Source: Methylococcaceae bacterium (lineage in GTDB: Bacteria; Pseudomonadota; Gammaproteobacteria; Methylococcales; Methylomonadaceae). From it: 30,545 nt of DNA. Shown here in pieces: positions 1 to 23,516 of this stretch. The stretch lies in the NCBI GenBank assembly GCA_005772825.1, contig SXIP01000291.1, positions 1 through 30,545 on the forward strand. Direction: 5' to 3'. Below the pieces are notes generated by a model, which had not been told where the DNA came from, did no database searches, and was given only the letters and a program-made list of their open reading frames with translations. The position numbers and the translations under genes were made by a program. The stretch's first letter is position 1, and each line of letters starts with the position of its first letter.

Positions 1-1277
1 GTGATTGATTGGCGTTGAGGTCACTAATCACCAGCAGATCAATACCGTTGTAATTGGCGTTAAAACTGATGTTACGGATTTGCGCGCCGGTTAAGGCATT
101 TTTAAGTTGTACCCTCAGTTGCGTAGCGTTTTGTTGCAATACCGCAAGGCCAGCTGTGCCTTTACCACTGATGTCTCGCACCACCCCCAGGTCCAGCGGT
201 TTGAAGGCAGGATCAAACGGCATCGCGCTGAGTTTGACGCCGCTCAGGCTGTCTCGCACTTCCACTTGTACCGCCTGATCACTGCTGCGCACACCCAGCA
301 CGGCGATTTCCGATGCGCCGTTGTTGTTGAGGTCAGGTAAGACATTTGCTTTATTGGGCACAAATTGGCCGTCGAATGGGATTCGCCTGACCAATGCGCC
401 GGTTTGGGCGTTTTTCACCGTGGCGGTGGATTTTTTGAGGGTGGGGTTATAAGTGACGACGGCGATTTCGGGGCTGTTGTCTTTGTTGATGTCACCGAGT
501 GAGATAATCGGGGTTGCGTTAACGATTCCGTTGTATAGTTGCTGGATTTCAGATTCAGAGAGAGCCCGGTTGTAGATACGAATATCATCAACAGACCCGG
601 CAAAATATTCACCCAAGAAGGACGCACTTCCAAAGAACAACTGTGTATTTTGCGAAACGATGTTCAGACTTGTATTTACGGATGCGTCCAATACCGCATT
701 AACATAGAAATTCCATGATTTGTTGTTTTTGACAATGACCACCTGATACCAAGTGTTCTGAGCAAAATCTGTTTTTGATCCCATAAGGTGGGCAGCTATA
801 TTCCAGCTATCCCCACCAGTATCCAACCAATAACTCAATCCGCCATCCCCACTGTGATTATAATTAATTGCAATCCCGTTATGCGGCTTGGTATTTAAAA
901 TTGCATTGAATTGTTTCGATAAATCATCGAGCTTGAACCATGCACTTATCGTGTAAGCAGTGCTGCCTATATCGAAAAAAGCAGTTTGGGTGTTGATATA
1001 ACTATCTACGCCATTAAATCTGTACGCACTGTTCAAATCTGTACGCACTGTTCGCATTCCCGAAGCGATCCGTCGTCAGTGTCGCCTCATGGATAGCACA
1101 GTTATTACCATTGCCACTCACATCGTTGGCGTTACCATTAAATGGGTAATAAGCAGCTAATCCATCATTTAGCTCGGCTGTTGCAAGTATTGGGAGGAGC
1201 AATGCTATCGCAAAAATTATTGTAACAATACTCTTTTCGTTAAATCCCTGTTTTCGGTGTTCCATGTTGTTATTCAT
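1..1277 (-). pseudogene. Paralog 1 of the secreted LamG + FG-GAP-like propeller family. It is cut by the window edge (its 3' end lies off-window) and frameshifted by a 19-bp tandem duplication.
   Basis: N-terminal ORF 1014..1277 encodes a signal peptide and the start of a LamG_3 domain (LAAYYPFNGNANDVSGNGNN...SAYRF). It then hits a stop that a perfect 19-bp tandem duplication at 1016..1053 creates. Manual translation after removing one copy continues in frame through a full LamG domain (…VDDIRIYNRALSESEIQQLY…). It then runs into the conserved repeats (SLGDINKDNSPEIAV…MPFDPAFKPLDLGV…) and on to position 1. DNA at 1-520 is near-identical to 2262-2780. Confidence 0.7.
1016..1053. repeat. Perfect 19-bp tandem duplication (aaatctgtacgcactgttc, two copies) that disrupts paralog 1
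   Basis: Read directly: positions 1016-1034 equal 1035-1053. 19 is not a multiple of 3, so the frame shifts and a TAA stop falls at 1014-1016 on the gene strand. Confidence 0.9.
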
Positions 1278-1395
1278 GTTAAATTTCCTCTAAATTAAAG
1301 GCTCGCTGAAAAATGTCATCATTGTTTATGTCTACGCGGGAAGGGCAACATGCACCGTCCGGCTGAAAAAAGATGTTGCTCGATCTCAGATGCAA
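1278..1395 (-). promoter_or_regulatory. Conserved upstream/5' region of paralog 1, homologous to 3562..3679 upstream of paralog 2
   Basis: aaaggctcgctgaaaaatgtcatcattgtttatgtctacgcgggaagggcaacatgcaccgtccggctgaaaaaagatgttgc aligns with aaaggcttgctaaaaaatgtcatcattgtttatgcctacgcgggaagggcaacatacaccgtccggctgagaaaatatgttgc. Both end in a GGGGA-type Shine-Dalgarno 6-7 nt before the ATG. Confidence 0.5.
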
Positions 1396-1454
1396 CTTAA
1401 AAATACATCGCCTAAATCAACACCCCTGGAAGCTAGAGCTTCCCAGCCCGCATT

Positions 1455-1663
1455 CCCAAGCCAGAGCTCTCGTCGTTATACACAAGTCTGTTCAAGACTT
1501 GACTGTAGGCCGGAATAAGCATGCCCGGCGGTAGCAAGGGCGTGTGTTTCCGGCATCACGTAGCTTCGAAGTGCCGGAAACGCCTGTCCTGCGCTCATGC
1601 GCGGACAGCCTTATTCCGGCCTACCTCGATTTGTGTATAACGATGAGAGCCAGAGCTTGGGAA
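1455..1663. mobile_element. MITE-like nested palindromic repeat, copy A. Outer inverted repeats are cgttatacacaa / ttgtgtataacgatgag. The inner 119-bp core at 1506..1624 has perfect 15-bp terminal inverted repeats GTAGGCCGGAATAAG and a central hairpin gtttccggca…tgccggaaac.
   Basis: Inverted repeats read directly. The inner core is the reverse complement of the core at 7862..7981, with about 90% identity and matching asymmetric internal positions. There is no ORF. Confidence 0.75.
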
Positions 1664-1698
1664 CGAGCTGAGTAGTCACAAAAGCTCTACCTGCGCGC

Positions 1699-3561
1699 TT
1701 AAAAATACATCCCCTGAATCAACACCCCTGTCTTTCCATCACGCACTTCGGCAAACAGCTTTTGCGGACCGGGTTGTTCCCTAAGGCGCACCAATTCAGC
1801 GACGCCGTTGCCGTTGAGGTCGGGGATGGAGATGAAGCCGACCGTGGTGCCATAGTTGTCGAAGACGACTTTATTGATGAAGGTATCGGTTAGGGTGTCA
1901 TGGACTTCGGCGCGAATTTGTCCATCTGAGGCGCGCAGGCCCAGCATTGCTAGGTGGGTTTGACTGTTGCTGTCGGCGACACTCGCCAATTTGAACGGTT
2001 GTGACAAGGCATAGTCCAGCGTATTCACCGGTAAACCGCTTAAGGTGTCTTTTAATGACACCCGTGCGGTATTGGTCCGCAAAACCCCTAACTCGGGGCC
2101 GCCTTTGTTATTCAGGTCAGGTAGATTAATCAGTTGCTTTAGTTCTTGGCCGCTGCCGTAGCTGATGGTGCGTATTAATGCGCCGGTCTTGCTGTCATGT
2201 ATTTCTACGATGTCAGCCGCACTGGTGGTTTTGTTATCGGCCAGCACAGCGATTTCCCGTGATTGATTGGCGTTGAGGTCGCTAATCACCAGCAGATCAA
2301 TACCGTTGTAATTGGCGTTAAAACTGATGTTACGGATTTGCGCGCCGGTTAAGGCGTTTTTAAGTTGTACCCGCAGTTGCGTAGCGTTTTGTTGCAATAC
2401 CGCAAGGCCGGCGGTGCCTTTACCACTGATGTCTCGCACCACTCCCAGGTCCAGCGGTTTGAAGGCAGGATCAAACGGCATCGCACTGAGTTTGACGCCG
2501 CTCAAGCTGTCTCGCACTTCCACTTGTACCGCCTGATCACTGCTGCGCACACCCAGCACGGCGATTTCAGAAGCACCATTGCCGTTCAGGTCAGGCAGGA
2601 CATTGGCTTTAGTCGGCACAAATTGGCCGTTGAAGGTGATTTGCTTGACCAGGCCGCCGGTTCTGGCGTTTTTGACGGTGGCGGTGGATTTTTTGAGGGT
2701 GGGGTTATAGGTGATGACGGCGATTTCGGGGCTGTTGTCTTTGTTGATGTCGCCGAGTGAGAGAAGCGGGGTGGCATTGATGGTAAATTGATCCTTTGCC
2801 TTATACATTTCCATTACCTCCGTATCTGAAAGAGTTCTATTATAAATACGAACACTGTCTATGAGACCAGCATAGAATCTAGCATCTCTATTTAGAAGAA
2901 ATGCACCTATATTTAGATCGCTAAAATCTACTGCTGTATTATTCACTACTGAAAAAGTAGTGTTCGTATCTAAAATACCATTTACATAAAGATATGATGT
3001 TCCAGTATCGCCGTTCATAACCCATACAACATGCTGCAATTGGTTCAGTTGAATTGCTGTATTTCCATAGAATTCACTTCCGACCGGACCTGTACTTTGA
3101 GAAGGCTGGATTCCGTATTCAGCAGAATGAATTCTGCATTCACCAGACACCGTTCTTAGAGAAAATACAACTTTCCCCCAAGTCCATCTCGTTGACCCAA
3201 TAATTGAACCATCGGTATTAATCTCACATGATGAAGGTTTTATCCATGCGCTGAAAGTAAATGTATTATTTACAGGCGACGGAAAATAATTCAGAAGGCC
3301 GATATAATCACCAGTTCCGTTGAAATTATATGCGCTATTAGGCTTCCCGTTTCCATCGGTAGTCAATGTAGCTCCATTTACTGTCCCGTAATTTCCATTC
3401 CCACTTTCATCATTAGCATTTCCATTGAAAGGGTAATAAGCAACCAATCCGTTATTTAGGTCCGCTTTTGCAAGTATAGGCAAGAGTAAGGCCATCGAAA
3501 AAAGTATCGCAATACTCTTTTCGTTGAATCCATGTTTTTGGTGTTTCATGTTGTTATTCAT
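1699..3561 (-). CDS. Secreted LamG (ConA-like lectin/glucanase) domain + seven-repeat FG-GAP/beta-propeller protein, paralog 2 (620 aa)
   Basis: Complete ORF with a GGGGA Shine-Dalgarno 6 nt upstream of the ATG. It has a K-rich N-terminus plus a hydrophobic signal peptide (SIAILFSMALLLPILAKA) and a LamG_3 signature (LVAYYPFNGNANDESGNGNYGTVNGATLTTD…VRIYNRTLSDTEVMEMY). Seven repeats of about 50 aa follow, each with a D-x-N-x-(D/N)-G loop (LGDINKDNSPEIAV, LPDLNGNGASEIAV, ISDLNANQSREIAV, IPDLNGNGVAELV …). Confidence 0.85.
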   Translation of the reverse strand: MNNNMKHQKHGFNEKSIAILFSMALLLPILAKADLNNGLVAYYPFNGNANDESGNGNYGTVNGATLTTDGNGKPNSAYNFNGTGDYIGLLNYFPSPVNNTFTFSAWIKPSSCEINTDGSIIGSTRWTWGKVVFSLRTVSGECRIHSAEYGIQPSQSTGPVGSEFYGNTAIQLNQLQHVVWVMNGDTGTSYLYVNGILDTNTTFSVVNNTAVDFSDLNIGAFLLNRDARFYAGLIDSVRIYNRTLSDTEVMEMYKAKDQFTINATPLLSLGDINKDNSPEIAVITYNPTLKKSTATVKNARTGGLVKQITFNGQFVPTKANVLPDLNGNGASEIAVLGVRSSDQAVQVEVRDSLSGVKLSAMPFDPAFKPLDLGVVRDISGKGTAGLAVLQQNATQLRVQLKNALTGAQIRNISFNANYNGIDLLVISDLNANQSREIAVLADNKTTSAADIVEIHDSKTGALIRTISYGSGQELKQLINLPDLNNKGGPELGVLRTNTARVSLKDTLSGLPVNTLDYALSQPFKLASVADSNSQTHLAMLGLRASDGQIRAEVHDTLTDTFINKVVFDNYGTTVGFISIPDLNGNGVAELVRLREQPGPQKLFAEVRDGKTGVLIQGMYF

Positions 3562-3679
3562 GTTAAATCCCCTCTAAATTAAAAGGCTTGCTAAAAAATG
3601 TCATCATTGTTTATGCCTACGCGGGAAGGGCAACATACACCGTCCGGCTGAGAAAATATGTTGCCCGACTCCAGGCAAC

Positions 3680-5506
3680 TTAAAAATACATCCCCTGAAT
3701 CAACACCCCTGTCCGACCATCACGCACTTCGGCAAACAGCTTTTGCGGGCCTGGTTGTTCTCTGAGACGCACCAGTTCGGCGACGCCGTTGCCGTTGATG
3801 TCGGGGATGGAGATAAAGCCGACGGTGGTGCCGTAGTTGTCGAAGACGACTTTATTGATCAAGGTATCGCTGAGGGCGTCATGGATTTCCGCGCGAATTT
3901 GTCCGTCGGAAGCGCGCAGGCCCAGCATGGCCAGGTGGATTTGACTGTTGCTGTCGGCGACACTTGCCAATTTGAACGGTTGCGACAGGGCATAGTCCAG
4001 CGTATTCACCGGTAAACCGCTTAAGGCGTCTTTTAATGACACCCTGGCCGTATTCGCCCGCAACACCGCTAACTCGACGCCGCCGTTGTTATTCAGGTCC
4101 GGTAGATTAATCAGTTGCTTTAGTTCTTGGCCGGTGCCGTAGCTGATGGTGCGGATTAATGCGCCGGTCTTGCTGTCGTGTATTTCCACGATGTCGGCAG
4201 CACTGGTGGTTTTATTATCGGCCAGTACGGCGATTTCCCGCGATTGATTGGCGTTGAGGTCGCTAATCACCAGCAGATCAATACCTTTGTAATTGGCGTT
4301 AAAACTGATGTTGCGGATTTGCGCGCCGGTTAAGGCATTTTTAAGTTGTACCCGCAGTTGCGTAGCGTTTTGTTGCAAGACGGCCAATCCCGCTGTGCCC
4401 TTGCCGTTTATGTCCCGCACCACGCCTAAGTCAAGGGGTTTGAAGGCAGGATCAAACGGCATCACACTGAGTTGGACGCCGCTGAGACTATCCCGGACTT
4501 CCACTTGTACCGCCTGATCACTGCTTCGCACACCAAGCACGGCGATTTCTGAAGCACCATTGCCGTTCAGGTCAGGTAAGACATTGGCTTTAGTCGGTAC
4601 AAATTGGCCATTGAAGGGGATTTGCTTGACCAATGCGCCGGTTTGGGCGTTTTTTACGGTGGCGGTGGATTTTTTGAGGGTGGGGTTATAGGTGATGACG
4701 GCGATTTCGGGACTGTTATCGTTGTTGATGTCGCCGAGGGAAACAAGCTGAGGTGTGTTCGGGATTTCCTGGTAGAGTTGCTGAATTTCTGAGGCCGATA
4801 AGGCACGGTTGTATATACGAACATTATCTAAACTGCCACGCATATAAAATTCAAAACCTGTATGAATACTTTTTCCAATAAAACCTTTTGACATGCCCGT
4901 ATTATGTGATTGAGGGAACAAATGTGTGCCTATATTTAAACCGTTCAGATAAATATTCAACCTACTGTTTTTATATACATATGTTGTCATGCTCCATTTA
5001 TTGGCTATTAAAGGCGTATTACTGATAAACCAATCTGCACCAGAGCCCGTATCAAATCCCATTAGCCCTAGCCACGGTGCCGCGTATCCACCCCATGATG
5101 ACGTACCGTAAAGAATTGCAAAAGTTTTCCATTCTTCAGGCATTCCATAAGAAATAATCGCCCCAATAGACGTTCCAGTATCGAGTTTTGCCCAAACAGA
5201 TATTGTTCTTTCATGACTTCCAGACGGTAATGTATTGAGGTTCAATTCGATAAAGCTAGCACCATCAAAATAATACGCGCTATTTTGATTACCGAATCGA
5301 TCCTCAACTAAACTTGCTCCGTATACCGTTCCATCATTCCCATTTAAACTTTCATCTTTTGCATTGCCATTGAACGGATAATAAGCGACTAATCCGTTAC
5401 TTAGATCGGCTATTGCAAGTGTTGGGAAGAGCAAGGCTATCGCAAAAAATATCGCAATTCTGCTTTTCTTAAATACCGGTTTTTGGTGTTTTATATTGTT
5501 ATTCAT
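3680..5506 (-). CDS. Secreted LamG + FG-GAP/beta-propeller protein, paralog 3 (608 aa), with a distinct LamG head
   Basis: Signal peptide RIAIFFAIALLFPTLAIA. LamG motif LVAYYPFNGNAKDESLNGNDGTVYGASLVEDRFGNQNSAYYFDG…VRIYNRALSASEIQQLY. The C-terminal 370 aa are about 95% identical to paralogs 2 and 4. Confidence 0.85.
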   Translation of the reverse strand: MNNNIKHQKPVFKKSRIAIFFAIALLFPTLAIADLSNGLVAYYPFNGNAKDESLNGNDGTVYGASLVEDRFGNQNSAYYFDGASFIELNLNTLPSGSHERTISVWAKLDTGTSIGAIISYGMPEEWKTFAILYGTSSWGGYAAPWLGLMGFDTGSGADWFISNTPLIANKWSMTTYVYKNSRLNIYLNGLNIGTHLFPQSHNTGMSKGFIGKSIHTGFEFYMRGSLDNVRIYNRALSASEIQQLYQEIPNTPQLVSLGDINNDNSPEIAVITYNPTLKKSTATVKNAQTGALVKQIPFNGQFVPTKANVLPDLNGNGASEIAVLGVRSSDQAVQVEVRDSLSGVQLSVMPFDPAFKPLDLGVVRDINGKGTAGLAVLQQNATQLRVQLKNALTGAQIRNISFNANYKGIDLLVISDLNANQSREIAVLADNKTTSAADIVEIHDSKTGALIRTISYGTGQELKQLINLPDLNNNGGVELAVLRANTARVSLKDALSGLPVNTLDYALSQPFKLASVADSNSQIHLAMLGLRASDGQIRAEIHDALSDTLINKVVFDNYGTTVGFISIPDINGNGVAELVRLREQPGPQKLFAEVRDGRTGVLIQGMYF

Positions 5507-5584
5507 GGTTAATAATTTCCCCTTTGTTAAAAAACGCTCTTAAATCCACCATCTTGTAAATTGGATAAAAACAGCTCTCCCTCA

Positions 5585-7543
5585 CTAAAAATACATCCCC
5601 TGAATCAACACCCCTGTCCGTCCATCACGCACTTCCGCAAACAGTTTTTGCGGGCCGGGTTGTTCTCTTAAGCGCACCAGTTCAGCTACGCCGTTGCCGT
5701 TGATGTCGGGGATGGAGATGAAGCCGACGGTGGTGCCGTAGTTGTCATAGACGACTTTATTAATCAAGGTATCGCTCAGGGCGTCATGGACTTCCGCGCG
5801 AATTTGTCCGTCGGAAGCGCGTACGCCCAGCATGGCCAGGTGGGTTTGACTGTTGCTGTCGGAGACACTCGCCAGTTTGAACGGTTGCGACAGGGCATAG
5901 TCCAGGGTATTCACCGGTAAACCGCTTAAGGCGTCTTTTAATGACACCCGCGCGGTATTCGCCCGCAACACCGCTAATTCGGCGCCGCCGTTTTTATTCA
6001 GGTCCGGTAGATTAATCAGTTGCTTTAGTTCTTGGCCGGTGCCGTAGCTGATGGTGCGTATTAATGCGCCGGTCTTGCTGTCGCGGATTTCCACGGTGTC
6101 GGCGGCGGTGACGGTTTTATTGTCGGCCAGCACGGCGAGTTCCCGCGATTGATTGGCGTTGAGGTCGCTAATCACCAGCAGGTCAATACCGTTGTAATTG
6201 GTGTTAAAACTGATGTTGCGGATTTGCGCGCCGCTCAAGGCATTTTTAAGTTGCACCCGCAGTTGCGTAGCGTTTTGTTGCAGGACTGCGAGGCCCGCTG
6301 TGCCCTTGCCGTTGATGTCCCGCACCACCCCCAGGTCCAGGGGTTTGAAGGCAGGATCAAACGGCACCGCGCTGAGTTTGACACCGCTCAGACTGTCACG
6401 CACTTCCACCTGTACCGCCTGATCACTGCTGCGCCCACCGAGCACGGCGATTTCGGACGCGCCGTTGCCGTTCAGGTCGGGCAGGACATTGGCTTTAGTC
6501 GGCACAAATTGGCCGTTGAAGGGGATTTGTTTGACCAAGGCGCCGGTTTGGGTGTTTTTTACGGTGGCGGTGGATTTTTTGAGGGTGGGGTTATAGGTGA
6601 CGACGGCGATTTCGAGGGCTCCGTCTTTGTTGATGTCACCAAGTGAGAGAAGTGAAGGAATGCTTAGTTGAATTACTGGATTTTCATTGAAACGATCAGA
6701 GAAATCAGTTTTGGCGAAATCGTAAAACACAATATTATCGAGAATCGCATCAGCGTGAATACCATCCCAATTGTGTCGCCCAAGGTAATTTAAGCGGGAA
6801 GGAGGAAGATCGTTTCTTACCGGGCAATTTGGATTTCCTACCAACGCAAGTGATCCGTCGAAATATAAACGAAATAGATCGGTTGTGTTACCGATTCCGT
6901 TATTATCCCAAACCATTGCCCAGTGGTGCCATTGCCCAGTCTCGAAATGAATTCCGTGGCTGCTGTAAGTGCCTGTCAAATTAATTTGCCATCCATCTAT
7001 ACAGCTTTCTATCGGAAAAAATCCAGCTACGATAGTACCAGCACCATCACCCCAGTAGCCAAGCACAAGTCGTTGAGAGCTTAGACCAAGGCTTGTATCA
7101 AATAAAATATGTGTACCCACTCCCGACGACGGCCAAGAGGTTTTGACCCATAACGCGATCGTACCGCGTGAATTCAATATGAGGCTGTTAATCAGCGATT
7201 CGTCTAACAAAAAATATCCAGGAAAAGAACTATCCATCCTGACACCGTTACCGAATCGCCCTGACTCATAATTGACATCACCTGTCTGCACTAAAGGCGG
7301 TCCGACTTCGCTGTTTGTTGCTTGTTTATTGTCTCCAAGCCTATTCCACAAAACAACATCATCTGCTTGCGCGAATTGCACAAACACATTGCTGAAACCA
7401 AAGAGCAAAAATGAGAACGATAAAATGCCATACATCAAAGCAGTATTAAATTTCTGTCCGCTCTTTATGTATATAACCATAATGAAGCTTTTCGAGGCAG
7501 ATAGGGTTTTGATACCGGATTTTACAAAATCAGGTGTGTTCAT
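5585..7543 (-). CDS. Secreted jelly-roll (LamG-like, divergent) + FG-GAP/beta-propeller protein, paralog 4 (652 aa from the 7543 start; alternative ATG starts at 7480 or 7435)
   Basis: The N-terminal 280 aa are unrelated in sequence to paralogs 1-3 but have a LamG-like character (ALWVKTSWPSS…WHHWAMVWDNNG…LFRLYFDGSL). A hydrophobic segment MYGILSFSFLLFGFSNVFVQFAQA is a likely signal peptide. The C-terminal propeller is conserved. A weak AGGAA Shine-Dalgarno lies 9 nt upstream of 7543. Confidence 0.8.
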   Translation of the reverse strand: MNTPDFVKSGIKTLSASKSFIMVIYIKSGQKFNTALMYGILSFSFLLFGFSNVFVQFAQADDVVLWNRLGDNKQATNSEVGPPLVQTGDVNYESGRFGNGVRMDSSFPGYFLLDESLINSLILNSRGTIALWVKTSWPSSGVGTHILFDTSLGLSSQRLVLGYWGDGAGTIVAGFFPIESCIDGWQINLTGTYSSHGIHFETGQWHHWAMVWDNNGIGNTTDLFRLYFDGSLALVGNPNCPVRNDLPPSRLNYLGRHNWDGIHADAILDNIVFYDFAKTDFSDRFNENPVIQLSIPSLLSLGDINKDGALEIAVVTYNPTLKKSTATVKNTQTGALVKQIPFNGQFVPTKANVLPDLNGNGASEIAVLGGRSSDQAVQVEVRDSLSGVKLSAVPFDPAFKPLDLGVVRDINGKGTAGLAVLQQNATQLRVQLKNALSGAQIRNISFNTNYNGIDLLVISDLNANQSRELAVLADNKTVTAADTVEIRDSKTGALIRTISYGTGQELKQLINLPDLNKNGGAELAVLRANTARVSLKDALSGLPVNTLDYALSQPFKLASVSDSNSQTHLAMLGVRASDGQIRAEVHDALSDTLINKVVYDNYGTTVGFISIPDINGNGVAELVRLREQPGPQKLFAEVRDGRTGVLIQGMYF

Positions 7544-7822
7544 AAAGGTTCTTTCCTGTGTTAAAGGTGCGAAGAAAGCAGACCGATACAGTTTCCCGCT
7601 TGATTAAGTTTGAGCAAAGCCAAGGACGACGATGCTAATAAGCGTCATTTGAGCAGAAAAACAAGAGAAAAAATATTCGTACAAATACTTACAGGGCAGG
7701 GGGCTATAAGGTTATCGATTGGATTTACGGTGTAGTAAATTTGTTACTACGCCGATATGAAATAGACGTTGAATGTAGTAGGTTTTAACGTGTCGAGTCT
7801 TGCAAACGGTTGATTTTCGCTG

Positions 7823-8154
7823 TTTCCCAAGTTCCGCTCTCATCGTTATACACAACTCGATGTAGGCCGGAATAAGTCTGTCCGCGCTTTAGCGCAGGAC
7901 AGGCGTTTCCGGCACTTCGAAGCCGTGTGATGCCGGAAACACACGCCCTTGCTGCCGCCGGGCGTGCTTATTCCGGCCTACTTTCAAGTCTGTGGGAGCA
8001 CGTCATTCCGGCATGGATTGCCGGAGCCGTTAGAACGCGTAAGCGAATCCAGGGCATAGGGATGTGTTCGAAGTTACCGTCCATGGCCTGGATACCCGCT
8101 TCCCGGCTGGTATGACGACACTTGATGTATAACAGTGAGAGCTAGAACGAGCTG
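7823..8154. mobile_element. MITE-like nested palindromic repeat, copy B, inverted relative to copy A. The inner core is 7862..7981 with the same 15-bp terminal inverted repeats. An extra palindrome-rich segment of about 124 bp lies at 7997..8120.
   Basis: The outer inverted repeats ctcatcgttatacacaa … ttgatgtataacagtgagagctagaacgagctg match copy A. The core equals the reverse complement of 1506..1624. Confidence 0.75.
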
Positions 8155-9823: not shown

Positions 9824-11029
9824 TTAACCCTTGACGCAAAGTACCTGCTTCAAGGTATGGACAATTTCCACCAGGTCGGCCTGCGCGGCCATGACCTTGT
9901 CGATGGGTTTGTAGGCTGACGGGGTTTCGTCGATCACGCTCGCGTCTTTACGGCATTCCACGCCTGCGGTCGCTTCGATATGCTCGGCCAGCGACACGCG
10001 CTTTTTAGCTTCGGTGCGGGACATGATGCGACCGGCGCCGTGGCTACAGCTACAGAAACTCTCTTCGTTACCCAAACCCCGCACGATGAACGATTGCGCC
10101 CCCATGCTGCCGGGGATGATGCCCATTTCACCCAGTCGTGCGCTCACCGCGCCTTTACGGGTTACCCAGACGTTTTTATCGTAGTGATGTTCGCGGCTGA
10201 TGTAGTTATGGTGACAATTCACCGCTTCGGTATGCGCTTCGAACGGCACCGGCAATACTTCGCGAATCGCCTGCAAGGTGTTTGTCATCATCACTTCCCG
10301 GTTGACCTGGGCGAAGTCTTGCGCCCAGGCAACGGCTGCAATGTAATTTTGAAAATGCTCGCTGCCTTCCGGGATATAGGCTAAATCTTTATCGGGCAAA
10401 TGGATGAACCAACGCTCCATGTCTTTTTTCGCCTGTTCGATAAAATGCGTACCGATCCGGTTACCGACTCCGCGTGATCCGCTGTGCAACATCACCCATA
10501 CGGCATTGTTTTCATCCAGGCAAATCTCGATGAAGTGGTTGCCTGTTCCCAAGGTACCCAGGTGGTTCAGATTATTGGTATTCTTCAGGAACGGATGTTT
10601 TTCGCACAAGCGCTGGAAACCTTCATCCAGCGCCAGCCACGCCTGTGTTATCTCTTCCGGCGGTTTACCCCAGCTTCCGGTATCGCGTCCGCCGCGGAAA
10701 TTCACTGAACGGCCATGAGGAACGCGTTGTTCTATCGCATTGCGCATGGCCGATAAAGAATCCGGTAATTGCTCGGCGGCCAGGCTGGTTTTTACCGCCA
10801 TCATTCCGCAACCCAAATCCACACCGACAGCGGCGGGGATGATAGCGCCGATGGTCGCGCCTTTACCGACATGCACATCCGGCATTACGGCAATCCATTT
10901 GTGTATAAAAGGCATGCGCGCGATATTTTGCAATTGCTGTTTTGAGTTATCGTCAAAACTGACGCCGCGCGTCCAGGATTTGATAGGGTGTTTACCTGCT
11001 TCGGATATAACTTCATAGGCGGTGGTCAT
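9824..11029 (-). CDS. rtcB: RNA 3'-phosphate/2',3'-cyclic phosphate RNA ligase RtcB (401 aa)
   Basis: Full-length match to the RtcB family by recognition (…MPDVHVGKGATIGAIIP…GNHFIEICLDE…HSGSRGVGN…CSCSHGAGR…). Confidence 0.95.
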   Translation of the reverse strand: MTTAYEVISEAGKHPIKSWTRGVSFDDNSKQQLQNIARMPFIHKWIAVMPDVHVGKGATIGAIIPAAVGVDLGCGMMAVKTSLAAEQLPDSLSAMRNAIEQRVPHGRSVNFRGGRDTGSWGKPPEEITQAWLALDEGFQRLCEKHPFLKNTNNLNHLGTLGTGNHFIEICLDENNAVWVMLHSGSRGVGNRIGTHFIEQAKKDMERWFIHLPDKDLAYIPEGSEHFQNYIAAVAWAQDFAQVNREVMMTNTLQAIREVLPVPFEAHTEAVNCHHNYISREHHYDKNVWVTRKGAVSARLGEMGIIPGSMGAQSFIVRGLGNEESFCSCSHGAGRIMSRTEAKKRVSLAEHIEATAGVECRKDASVIDETPSAYKPIDKVMAAQADLVEIVHTLKQVLCVKG

Positions 11030-22253: not shown

Positions 22254-23516
22254 TTACCTATTAAATTTTGATAAATATCTTGAAAAAACCCATCCTTGCT
22301 TGAATTCATTTGTATCAGAGTCTTGATATTCTATTAAACACCAACTTCTTTTTTTATCTATAACCTTAACTATTTTCCCAATATATAATTCATCAATGAT
22401 TTCTGCCTTAGTGCTTTCATAATTTCGCACAAATAAAATTTTTGTAGCAACAAAATGATGATCTAGTAAAAATTGAGAATTGTAATTTTCATTCGCCCTC
22501 GAAATAATTTCATTTTTTACTTCTCTTGTACTTAGGTTAGGAAATTGATTCCATTGCTCTTCCCAATATGAGGTGGTTACGTTTGCAAAAATTGCTATGA
22601 AGTAAGGGATAAATAAATAGATTAGTACAGCTTTTATAATTGGATTGCTTAAGTTTTTGAGTTGCTCTATAAAACCATTTATAGCATCAATATAAGATTC
22701 GCAATTAATAGAAAAATCATTGATGTATTCAATGATTTCTTCTTGGCTTACTGACTCATTGCCGACAGAAAAAGTACCATCCTCATTGATGTGAACATTA
22801 GCAACTAACTCTGTATGATTTTGAGCGAGACCCTGGAATTCAAGTGTGCTTTCGAATATTTTTCTTAGTCCCAACATATTATCTAAGGGATAAGCTTCAT
22901 AACTTTTCATTTGCTCTTGAAGTCGGGAAATTGGGCTAACTGGTTGGGACAACTCGTGTAGCTTCTTCGCTTGACCTAAAATGCCGCCCATAAAATTGGC
23001 TTCATAATTTTTCATTTGCTCTTGAAGTTGGGAAATTGGGCTAACTGGTTGGGACAACTCGTGTAGCTTCTTCGCTTGACCTAAGATGCCGCCCATAAAA
23101 TTGGCTTCATAACTTTTCATTTGCTCTTGAAGTCGGGAAATTGGGCTAACTGGTTGGGACAACTCGTGTAGCTTCTTCGCTTGACCTAAAATGCCGCCCA
23201 TAAAATTGGCTTCATAATTTTTCATTTGATCTTGAAGTCGGGAAATCGAGCTAACTGGTTGGGTTATCTCGCATAGCTTTTTCAATTGCTCTTGGGTCTT
23301 TAGCAATGGATTTGTATCAAAAAGATTCTTAATTTGCCCTTGCGATTTCATAATTTCAAGCATTTGGTCAAAAGAATCCCTTTTGTCTTTCTGCAATAAC
23401 TCTATTTCTAATTGAGTCAGCATCCTTTTTTGAATTGATGATATAGCGAGCTTCTGACTCGGTAAGGCTGTCGAATCCGTAGCCAAAGAAGTCAATCCAC
23501 CAAGGTTCGAGTTCAT
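22254..23516 (-). CDS. Hypothetical membrane protein with four 35-aa tandem repeats and a C-terminal SH3-like domain. The real start is probably the internal ATG at about 23363, since the track start overlaps the upstream gene by 149 nt.
   Basis: The repeat LHELSQPVSPISRLQEQMKSYEANFMGGILGQAKK occurs three times, plus one degenerate copy. A TM helix IIKAVLIYLFIPYFIAIF follows. The tail is GKIVKVIDKKRSWCLIEYQDSDTNEFKQGWVFSRYL. The DNA is AT-rich. Confidence 0.6.
   Translation of the reverse strand: MNSNLGGLTSLATDSTALPSQKLAISSIQKRMLTQLEIELLQKDKRDSFDQMLEIMKSQGQIKNLFDTNPLLKTQEQLKKLCEITQPVSSISRLQDQMKNYEANFMGGILGQAKKLHELSQPVSPISRLQEQMKSYEANFMGGILGQAKKLHELSQPVSPISQLQEQMKNYEANFMGGILGQAKKLHELSQPVSPISRLQEQMKSYEAYPLDNMLGLRKIFESTLEFQGLAQNHTELVANVHINEDGTFSVGNESVSQEEIIEYINDFSINCESYIDAINGFIEQLKNLSNPIIKAVLIYLFIPYFIAIFANVTTSYWEEQWNQFPNLSTREVKNEIISRANENYNSQFLLDHHFVATKILFVRNYESTKAEIIDELYIGKIVKVIDKKRSWCLIEYQDSDTNEFKQGWVFSRYLSKFNR
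22893..23312. repeat. Four tandem copies of a 105-bp repeat. The first three are near-identical.
   Basis: Period 105 measured from the ggcttcat anchors at 22894, 22999, 23104 and 23209. The repeat is coding, so it is not CRISPR. Confidence 0.85.

What the first reader, a model, noticed from the sequence alone, without database searches (positions are those of the whole stretch)
1014..1060. Paralog 1 switched off by a perfect 19-bp tandem duplication that is reversible in principle
Positions 1016-1034 and 1035-1053 are identical. On the gene strand this converts …NSAYRFNGVDSY… into …NSAYRFEQCVQI-stop. Manual translation with one copy deleted gives an uninterrupted LamG domain that matches paralog 3 at RIYNRAL-S-EIQQLY, followed by the propeller to the window edge. 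Perfect tandem duplications are lost by homologous recombination at appreciable rates. This could therefore be a recent inactivation or a crude ON/OFF switch on one member of a variable surface-protein family. It could also be an assembly artefact.
Basis: seen in the sequence. Interest (0 to 1): 0.6.

Follow-up and report, generated by a model that had tools for sequence, protein, structure and literature searches.

The report
Gene broken by 19-base duplication
One of four neighbouring genes for secreted lectin-like proteins in an uncultured methane-oxidising bacterium is knocked out of frame by a perfect 19-base tandem duplication that is real and shared by every available assembly, which makes it an ordinary young pseudogene rather than a demonstrated on/off switch.

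Summary
Window 1016-1034 and 1035-1053 are identical (AAATCTGTACGCACTGTTC x2). On the minus strand this shifts paralog 1 by +1 and stops it after 87 codons (…NSAYRFEQCVQI*). With one copy removed the frame stays open for 419 codons to the window edge, and for 568 codons in a longer overlapping contig. It is not chance: the longest perfect tandem duplication in 100 simulated sequences was 12 bp. It is not an assembly artefact: the same two-copy allele appears in five other assemblies besides the window (three ENA, one NCBI, one Logan). Paralogs 2 and 3 have one copy of the homologous segment, so one copy is ancestral. No other lesion is visible. The propeller part of paralog 1 shows the same purifying selection as its intact neighbours (dN/dS 0.10-0.16), so the inactivation is recent. 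I found no one-copy allele, no repeat tract and no recurrence in related gene arrays. The best reading is a young pseudogene made by a spontaneous out-of-frame duplication, a common class of mutation. It could revert in principle, as in pneumococcal cap3A or Ralstonia phcA, but nothing here shows switching. Interest is low.

The parts
1016..1034 (-). Copy 1 of the 19-bp unit (+ strand AAATCTGTACGCACTGTTC; gene strand GAACAGTGCGTACAGATTT). On the gene strand this is the second, extra copy, which is read out of frame as E-Q-C-V-Q-I.
1035..1053 (-). Copy 2 of the 19-bp unit. On the gene strand this is the first copy, read in frame as (A)NSAYRF.
1014..1277 (-). Truncated ORF of paralog 1 (87 aa): Sec-type signal peptide, about 47 native residues (the first four strands of the LamG sandwich), then 6 frameshifted residues and TAA at 1014-1016.
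   Evidence: The strand position comes from the AlphaFold model of paralog 3, where the homologous AYYFD is strand 77-81.
1..1057 (-). Out-of-frame remainder of paralog 1 (rest of LamG plus FG-GAP-like propeller). It is open in the +1 frame from an internal ATG at 1057-1055 to the window edge. Gene callers report it as a separate 342-501-aa product with no signal peptide.
1278..1395 (-). Upstream region of paralog 1. It is about 93% identical to the region upstream of paralog 2 (3562-3679) and includes the ribosome-binding site (AGAGGAA) and a terminator-like hairpin. No lesion is visible.
1699..3561 (-). Paralog 2, intact, 620 aa: signal peptide, Laminin_G_3, propeller. It has one copy of the homologous NSAYNFNG segment.
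3680..5506 (-). Paralog 3, intact, 608 aa. It has one copy of the homologous NSAYYFDG segment. The structure was modelled (LamG sandwich 39-232, propeller 253-608).
5585..7543 (-). Paralog 4, intact, 652 aa, with a more divergent LamG head.

Best explanation
Paralog 1 is a young pseudogene. A spontaneous tandem duplication of 19 bp (one base more than six codons) arose inside the fourth beta-strand of its LamG head. The likely cause is a replication or repair misalignment, but this is inferred: there is no flanking microhomology and no hairpin. The duplication shifts the frame by +1 and terminates translation six codons later. What remains is an 87-residue signal-peptide stub. The rest of the gene, about 500 codons, has no signal peptide and no good ribosome-binding site. 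The allele then became the majority allele, probably fixed, in the sampled population of an uncultured Methylobacter-like methanotroph. This could have happened by drift, by hitch-hiking, or because losing one of four redundant lectin-head/propeller proteins was neutral or advantageous. Shown here: the lesion, its reality across assemblies, the ancestral one-copy state, the absence of other lesions, and selection on the propeller that is not relaxed. Inferred: the mutational mechanism, loss of function, and fixation. Precise loss of one copy would restore the gene, so the lesion is reversible in principle, but nothing indicates that reversal occurs or is used.
For: The duplication is perfect and far beyond chance. 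The identical two-copy allele is found in ERZ27257032, ERZ27257034, ERZ27257035, GCA_005801925.1 (SXGS01356153.1) and Logan SRR8894382, as well as in the window contig. The window haplotype differs from the ENA haplotypes by a 21-bp indel in rtcB yet shares the duplication. Paralogs 2 and 3 have a single copy of the homologous segment. The repaired frame is open for 568 codons, and the upstream region and ribosome-binding site are conserved with paralog 2. For the propeller, dN/dS of pairs that include paralog 1 is 0.105-0.158, against 0.094-0.147 for pairs of intact genes. Changes unique to paralog 1 are 11 synonymous and 6 non-synonymous, against 15/9, 13/6 and 13/13 for the others. Related gene arrays contain intact members plus truncated remnants, which indicates birth-and-death turnover in this family, and a 33-nt gene-tail remnant lies next to paralog 1 itself. 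Literature: about half of small insertions in bacterial pseudogenes create direct repeats (PMC6054270). Tandem duplications of 26-116 bp are plain loss-of-function mutations in Xenorhabdus lrp (PMC6786866).
Against: A perfect duplication with no second lesion is also what a reversible switch caught in the OFF state would look like. Consensus assemblies cannot reveal a minority ON allele. Fixation is judged from assemblies that probably come from a single study or site, and the sample metadata could not be traced. The 3' end of paralog 1 (about 40 codons) lies beyond every contig, so its integrity is unknown. Homogenisation of the propeller by gene conversion could hide relaxed selection.
Confidence: 0.72

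Rival explanations
1. The duplication is a crude reversible ON/OFF switch, that is, phase variation by tandem duplication. Precise loss of one copy by slippage re-opens the gene often enough for selection to toggle expression of this lectin-head protein, as described for pneumococcal capsule genes and Ralstonia phcA.
For: The duplication is perfect and out of frame, and it is the only lesion. The gene encodes a secreted protein from a tandem family with diversified binding heads, the kind of gene that is often phase-variable. Purifying selection is undiminished. A precedent exists for the mechanism: Waite et al. 2001/2003, as cited in PMC4243769, PMC4022640 and PMC11163986, and Poussier 2003, as cited in bioRxiv 10.1101/2023.04.27.538605.
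Against: Only the OFF allele was seen in six assemblies. No intact paralog-1 protein exists in 5.8 billion clustered proteins; the best LamG match is 41%, and full-length hits to the family profile are at most 70% identical. No one-copy DNA was found in genome or JGI/NCBI metagenome contigs. There are only two copies of a 19-nt unit, and no repeat tract that would raise the forward rate. The homologous site in paralogs 2 and 3 is unremarkable. Related arrays show no similar lesion. In the pneumococcal case many different duplications arise in one gene, whereas here a single event is shared by all assemblies.
Confidence: 0.13
2. The duplication is an assembly or sequencing artefact and is absent from the organism's DNA.
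For: The gene lies in a repeat-rich array where contigs break, and the window ends inside the propeller. The window contig also carries a unique 21-bp deletion in rtcB that might be an error.
Against: The duplication lies in the unique LamG region, not in the repeated propeller. A 38-bp array is spanned by single reads and by k-mers of 141. The identical junction appears in five other assemblies from at least three samples, made with MEGAHIT-style k141 contigs, Logan contigs and an NCBI WGS submission. The Logan contig runs through the site for 457 nt on one side and 552 nt on the other without a break.
Confidence: 0.03
3. The gene is still expressed despite the duplication. This could happen by a +1 ribosomal frameshift in the 44-nt overlap, for example at CAG-ATT-TAA, which would give a protein with a 6-residue insertion. 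Alternatively the gene could be expressed as two separate polypeptides.
For: The 0 and +1 frames overlap by 44 nt. A stop codon directly follows an A-TTT-A context. An internal ATG (1057-1055) opens the downstream frame, and gene callers annotate it.
Against: There is no Shine-Dalgarno-like stimulator upstream of the stop. tRNA-Ile re-pairing from AUU to UUU would be poor (inference). No homologue shows a frameshift at this site. The internal ATG has only GGGA directly adjacent as a possible ribosome-binding site. The downstream product would lack both the signal peptide and the first four strands of the LamG sandwich.
Confidence: 0.02

Closest known systems
Spontaneous tandem-duplication frameshift mutations (ordinary loss-of-function class; for example Xenorhabdus nematophila lrp duplications of 26-116 bp, and direct-repeat insertions in Burkholderia pseudogenes)
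   Same: A perfect head-to-tail duplication of a short unique segment inside an ORF, with a length that is not a multiple of three, a premature stop, a single event and no dedicated machinery.
   Different: At 19 bp it is longer than most pseudogene insertions, few of which exceed 15 nt (PMC6054270). Here it is seen as the consensus allele of a wild population rather than in laboratory isolates.
Capsule phase variation in Streptococcus pneumoniae by reversible tandem duplications in cap3A, cap8E and tts (Waite et al. 2001, 2003)
   Same: The OFF state is an out-of-frame tandem duplication within an ORF for a surface or secreted function, and the ON state would be restored by precise loss of one copy.
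   Different: In pneumococcus many independent duplications of different length and position arise, and reversion was observed experimentally. Here one identical event is shared by all assemblies and no revertant allele is known. The organism is an uncultured environmental methanotroph, not a host-associated pathogen.
Ralstonia solanacearum phcA tandem duplications with reversion in planta (Poussier et al. 2003)
   Same: A tandem duplication inactivates a gene, and the wild type can be regained.
   Different: phcA is a global regulator with a strong and opposite fitness effect in two habitats. Here the target is one of four redundant paralogs, and no alternating selection is known.
Simple-sequence-repeat contingency loci (Neisseria opa, Haemophilus lic1 and similar)
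   Same: The frame is changed by gain or loss of a repeat unit in a gene for a secreted or surface protein (PMC4235727).
   Different: Those loci carry long tracts of 1-8-nt units that are conserved as tracts and mutate at up to 1e-3 per division. This site has two copies of a 19-nt unit and no tract in any homologue.

Membership tests
Young frameshift pseudogene | The reading frame is disrupted and a premature stop appears, relative to intact homologues. | tested here: met
   87-aa ORF against paralogs of 608-652 aa. The frame is restored by deleting one copy.
Young frameshift pseudogene | The ancestral state, inferred from homologues, lacks the lesion. | tested here: met
   Paralogs 2 and 3 have one copy of the NSAYxF[ND]G segment.
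Young frameshift pseudogene | Few or no additional lesions, and substitution pattern not yet relaxed (this is what makes it 'young'). | tested here: met
   No stop or frameshift in 568 repaired codons. dN/dS is 0.10-0.16, the same as for intact paralogs. Caveat: gene conversion could mask decay in the propeller.
Young frameshift pseudogene | The lesion is present in the population, not in a single read set. | tested here: met
   Six assemblies, at least three samples.
Tandem-duplication phase variation (cap3A / phcA type) | A perfect out-of-frame tandem duplication lies inside the ORF. | tested here: met
Tandem-duplication phase variation (cap3A / phcA type) | Both states (with and without the duplication) coexist or alternate in the same lineage. 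| tested here: not met
   Only the two-copy allele was found in all assemblies, and no one-copy allele in protein or DNA searches. The power is limited: these are consensus assemblies, and partial proteins are absent from the protein collection.
Tandem-duplication phase variation (cap3A / phcA type) | Precise reversion that restores function has been demonstrated. | not testable with these tools
   This needs cultures, reporter constructs, or raw reads and time series.
Simple-sequence-repeat contingency locus | A hypermutable tract with many copies of a 1-8-nt unit or a homopolymer, conserved as a tract in homologues. | tested here: not met
   Two copies of a 19-nt unit. Only a weak 9-nt quasi-period is present (68% matches). 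Homologues have no tract.
Programmed +1 ribosomal frameshift (prfB-like) | A slippery codon before an in-frame stop, an upstream Shine-Dalgarno-like stimulator, and conservation of the frameshift in homologues. | tested here: not met
   The sequence context CAG ATT TAA has no upstream SD-like element. All homologues are in a single frame.
LamG (Laminin_G_3) / FG-GAP propeller secreted protein family | Laminin_G_3 domain scoring above the Pfam gathering threshold. | tested here: met
   Repaired paralog 1 scores 89.7 bits (cut-off 27.6). Paralogs 2-4 score 41-68 bits.
LamG (Laminin_G_3) / FG-GAP propeller secreted protein family | C-terminal beta-propeller built from FG-GAP-like repeats. | tested here: met
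   FG-GAP_3 scores 28.5 bits against a cut-off of 26.9 in paralog 3. The other paralogs score below their cut-offs. The AlphaFold model has an all-beta repeated domain at 253-608 with pLDDT around 90. Seven D-x-N-x-[DN]-G-x-x-E loops can be read in the sequence.

The most novel reading that the evidence does not exclude
The 19-bp duplication is the OFF state of a heritable, reversible switch on one member of a swappable-head lectin/propeller family in a free-living methanotroph. That would extend duplication-based phase variation, known from a few pathogens, to an environmental bacterium, where it might be used to evade phage or grazers or to change attachment.
Probability: 0.1. Interest if true: 0.45.

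Novelty: new member of a known kind. Interest (0 to 1): 0.18.

Why it matters
In itself it matters little. It is a clean natural example of a common mutational class, a short out-of-frame tandem duplication, caught early in the life of a pseudogene, in a gene family that is clearly turning over. It is useful for annotation: the 87-aa and roughly 500-aa gene calls are two halves of one broken gene. It also offers a strain marker for this methanotroph population. If read-level data showed a mixture of one-copy and two-copy alleles that varies between samples, it would be a rare documented case of duplication-based phase variation outside pathogens. It would also point to the lectin-head/propeller family as being under fluctuating selection.

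Tried and rejected
1. One-copy allele in protein space. I searched the repaired LamG head against 5.8 billion clustered proteins. The best hit was 41% identical. A family-profile search found no full-length hit above 70% identity to paralog 1. This absence is weak evidence, because products cut by contig ends are not in that collection.

2. One-copy allele in DNA. A gapped pattern that accepts either one or two copies found nothing in metagenome contigs, although it matches the window itself. That collection evidently lacks the short contigs carrying this locus. A protein-guided scan of GTDB species genomes found only distant LamG proteins.

3. Orthologue of the paralog-1 head in related arrays (L011-L017). 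None was found; the best was 37%.

4. Sample metadata. Searches for the accessions SXGS/SXGU, SRR8894382 and 3300028901 in the paper library returned no papers.

5. Cause of the duplication. There is no microhomology at the junctions (direct reading) and no significant DNA hairpin (z = -0.86 and -0.05). The unit is not copied from elsewhere. Target-site duplication from an excised mobile element was considered and rejected, because no insertion remnant is present and 19 bp fits no insertion-sequence family I know of (own knowledge).

6. Structured RNA. Rfam found nothing in 1-8000.

7. Programmed frameshift and split-gene expression. Both were considered and rated unlikely (see rival explanations).

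Full report
OBSERVATION

Window positions 1016-1034 and 1035-1053 are the same 19 bases, AAATCTGTACGCACTGTTC. The identity stops exactly at both ends (T1015 vs C1034; A1035 vs G1054). It is therefore a clean 2 x 19 bp head-to-tail duplication with no flanking microhomology.

Tandem Repeats Finder reports period 19, 2.0 copies, 100% matches. In 100 first-order Markov simulations of the window the longest perfect tandem duplication had period 12. The 19-mer occurs nowhere else in the window, even with three mismatches allowed. Chance can be dismissed.

EFFECT ON THE GENE

- The gene (paralog 1, P1) is on the minus strand and starts at 1277.
- On the gene strand the unit is G-AAC-AGT-GCG-TAC-AGA-TTT, that is, the last base of Ala75 followed by N-S-A-Y-R-F.
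- The second copy is read one base out of frame as E-Q-C-V-Q-I, followed by TAA (1016-1014). The result is the 87-aa ORF 1014..1277.
- With one copy deleted the frame is open for 419 codons to the window edge.
- Contig L001 is identical to the window over 5,828 bp and extends 446 bp further. There the repaired frame stays open for 568 codons, to the contig end.

WHAT THE GENE IS

P1 is the last of four tandem minus-strand paralogs:
- P1, window 1..1277
- P2, 1699..3561
- P3, 3680..5506
- P4, 5585..7543

Each has a Sec-type signal peptide and a Laminin_G_3 (LamG / concanavalin-A-like) head. The repaired P1 head scores 89.7 bits against a cut-off of 27.6. Each also has a C-terminal FG-GAP-like propeller. 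The heads are only loosely similar to each other, whereas the propellers are 90-94% identical in protein and 89-92% in DNA.

An AlphaFold model of P3 (mean pLDDT 81, propeller around 90) shows a signal helix, a beta-sandwich at 39-232 and a repeated all-beta domain at 253-608. Foldseek matches the model to sialidase L, to a GH43 carbohydrate-binding module and to the lectin-like half of the clostridial neurotoxin binding domains.

In the model the duplication site falls at the end of the fourth strand (AYYFD, 77-81). The 87-aa product therefore cannot form the domain. The downstream frame, which gene callers start at the ATG at 1057-1055, lacks the signal peptide and those first four strands.

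A profile search shows that the same propeller is combined with other heads (LamG, C-type lectin, or none) in a modest number of metagenomic proteins. Related contigs carry arrays of three to four intact members.

The organism is an uncultured member of the Methylococcales. The closest named relatives of the AI-2E transporter in the window are Methylobacter spp. at 77-78% identity. A syntenic relative at 88-89% DNA identity carries methanopterin-pathway genes.

IS THE DUPLICATION REAL?

The window is a complete NCBI contig of 30,545 bp. The exact 87-aa product requires the two-copy allele, and it is encoded on contigs from five further sources:
- ENA assembly ERZ27257032
- ENA assembly ERZ27257034
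- ENA assembly ERZ27257035
- NCBI GCA_005801925.1 (SXGS01356153.1)
- a Logan assembly of run SRR8894382

In all five the junction is base-for-base identical. The surrounding unique sequence has no mismatches. The only differences (4 and 1 bases) lie in the repeated tail of P2.

The duplication sits in the unique LamG region and is only 38 bp long. It is therefore spanned by single reads and by 141-mers. An artefact that recurs identically across pipelines is not credible.

The window haplotype also differs from the ENA haplotypes by a 21-bp indel in rtcB, yet it shares the duplication. This shows that the duplication is not private to one haplotype.

The samples probably come from a single study, and I could not trace their metadata.

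HOW OLD IS IT?

- P2 and P3 carry one copy of the homologous N-S-A-Y-x-F-[N/D]-G segment, so one copy is ancestral.
- The 118 bp upstream of P1 are about 93% identical to the region upstream of P2, including the ribosome-binding site.
- No other stop or frameshift occurs in 568 codons.
- Over 316 aligned propeller codons, dN/dS is 0.105-0.158 for pairs involving P1 and 0.094-0.147 for pairs of intact genes.
- Changes unique to P1 are 11 synonymous and 6 non-synonymous. The values for P2, P3 and P4 are 15/9, 13/6 and 13/13.

P1 has therefore been under the same purifying selection as its neighbours for essentially all of its history, and the inactivation is recent on that time scale. Gene conversion among the propellers could blur this signal, and the unique LamG head has no close homologue that would allow the same test.

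IS IT A SWITCH?

I looked for the ON (one-copy) allele and found none.
- The repaired LamG head has no hit above 41% identity among 5.8 billion clustered proteins.
- No full-length hit to the family profile exceeds 70% identity to P1.
- GTDB species genomes yielded only distant LamG proteins.
- A DNA pattern that accepts either one or two copies found nothing in the metagenome contig collection.

These negatives are weak. Proteins cut by contig ends are not in the protein collection, the DNA collection does not hold the short contigs that carry this locus, and assemblies report only majority alleles.

Other evidence does not depend on read access. There is no repeat tract that would favour repeated slippage, only a 68%-matching 9-nt quasi-period. 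There is no hairpin. No comparable lesion appears in any propeller copy of the related arrays. The same single event is present everywhere, rather than a spectrum of duplications as in pneumococcus.

The arrays do show truncated copies and orphan gene tails (L012 4484-5445; window 1396-1428). This is the signature of birth-and-death turnover.

COMPARISON WITH KNOWN SYSTEMS

Out-of-frame tandem duplications are a standard class of spontaneous mutation. About half of small insertions in Burkholderia pseudogenes create direct repeats, though few exceed 15 nt (PMC6054270). Duplications of 26-116 bp are among the plain, non-reverting lrp mutations of Xenorhabdus (PMC6786866).

In a few systems the same lesion has been treated as phase variation because precise loss of the duplication was observed:
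- S. pneumoniae cap3A, cap8E and tts (Waite et al. 2001, 2003, as cited in PMC4243769, PMC4022640 and PMC11163986)
- R. solanacearum phcA (Poussier et al. 2003, as cited in bioRxiv 10.1101/2023.04.27.538605)

The present case shares the lesion with both groups. It lacks the features that define the second group, namely coexisting states and observed reversion.

From my own knowledge, not tested here: 19 bp is below the length usually quoted for efficient RecA-dependent recombination. Loss of a copy would therefore depend on RecA-independent slippage, and the rate for repeats this short is modest.

VERDICT

The duplication is real and population-wide, and it is the only visible lesion in a gene that was under selection until recently.

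My estimated weights for the explanations:
- Young pseudogene produced by an ordinary spontaneous duplication: about 0.7
- Functional reversible switch, unsupported but not excluded: about 0.1-0.15
- Assembly or sequencing artefact: about 0.03
- Continued expression by frameshifting or as a split gene: about 0.02

Counting reads that span the site in the original runs would settle the matter.

Noticed in passing
window ~10847 (rtcB, 9824..11029 minus strand); L009 2661-2681: The window's rtcB lacks 21 nt (GCCGATGGTCGGAATCACGCT) that are present in the ENA contigs of the same population. The deletion lies exactly between two 11-nt direct repeats (GCCGATGGTCG). It removes seven residues (GSVIPTI) from the conserved GKGATIGSVIPTIGAIIPAAVGVD motif. 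This variant protein is recorded only for the window contig. It looks like a slippage deletion, the mirror image of the 19-bp duplication, or possibly an assembly error.
   Followed up: partly
window 1429-1697 and ~7800-8050: Two copies of a REP/MITE-like element with nested inverted repeats and a core GTAGGCCGGAATAAG…CTTATTCCGGCCTAC. They bracket the three intact paralogs P2-P4. The first copy is flanked by a 33-nt direct repeat (1396-1428 and 1698-1730, 94% identical) that corresponds to the last codons plus the stop of the propeller gene. The 1396-1428 copy is a decayed orphan gene tail. Rfam gives no match.
   Followed up: partly
window 22894-23263 (within ORF 22254..23516, SH3_3 protein): A 105-bp (35-aa) tandem repeat, 3.5 copies, 96% identical. 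The called gene length differs between assemblies (420, 389 and 319 aa), and ten mismatches cluster at the repeat in L010. This suggests either copy-number variation or repeat collapse during assembly.
   Followed up: no
window 1-7543; loci L011-L016: The family has a nearly constant FG-GAP-like propeller (dS about 0.26-0.35 between paralogs, dN/dS about 0.1-0.15). It is joined to very different N-terminal heads: LamG, and in relatives C-type lectin or no recognisable domain. The genes are arranged in tandem arrays. None of the heads in related arrays is orthologous to the P1 head (best 37%). This modular head-swapping may deserve its own study.
   Followed up: partly
window 1-310 vs 2259-2568: The left end of the contig lies inside the P1 propeller and is about 98% identical to the corresponding part of P2. 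This explains why every assembly breaks here and why the 3' end of P1 is not seen in any contig.
   Followed up: yes
L008 (JGI 3300028901, Ga0310362_1188431): A relative at 88-89% DNA identity shares the SpoIIE-STAS-Uma2…Amidohydro_3 block. It then diverges: it has HicAB and YkuD genes in place of the guanylate-cyclase region. Methanopterin-pathway genes lie upstream. The fetched part of this contig does not contain the lectin/propeller array.
   Followed up: no
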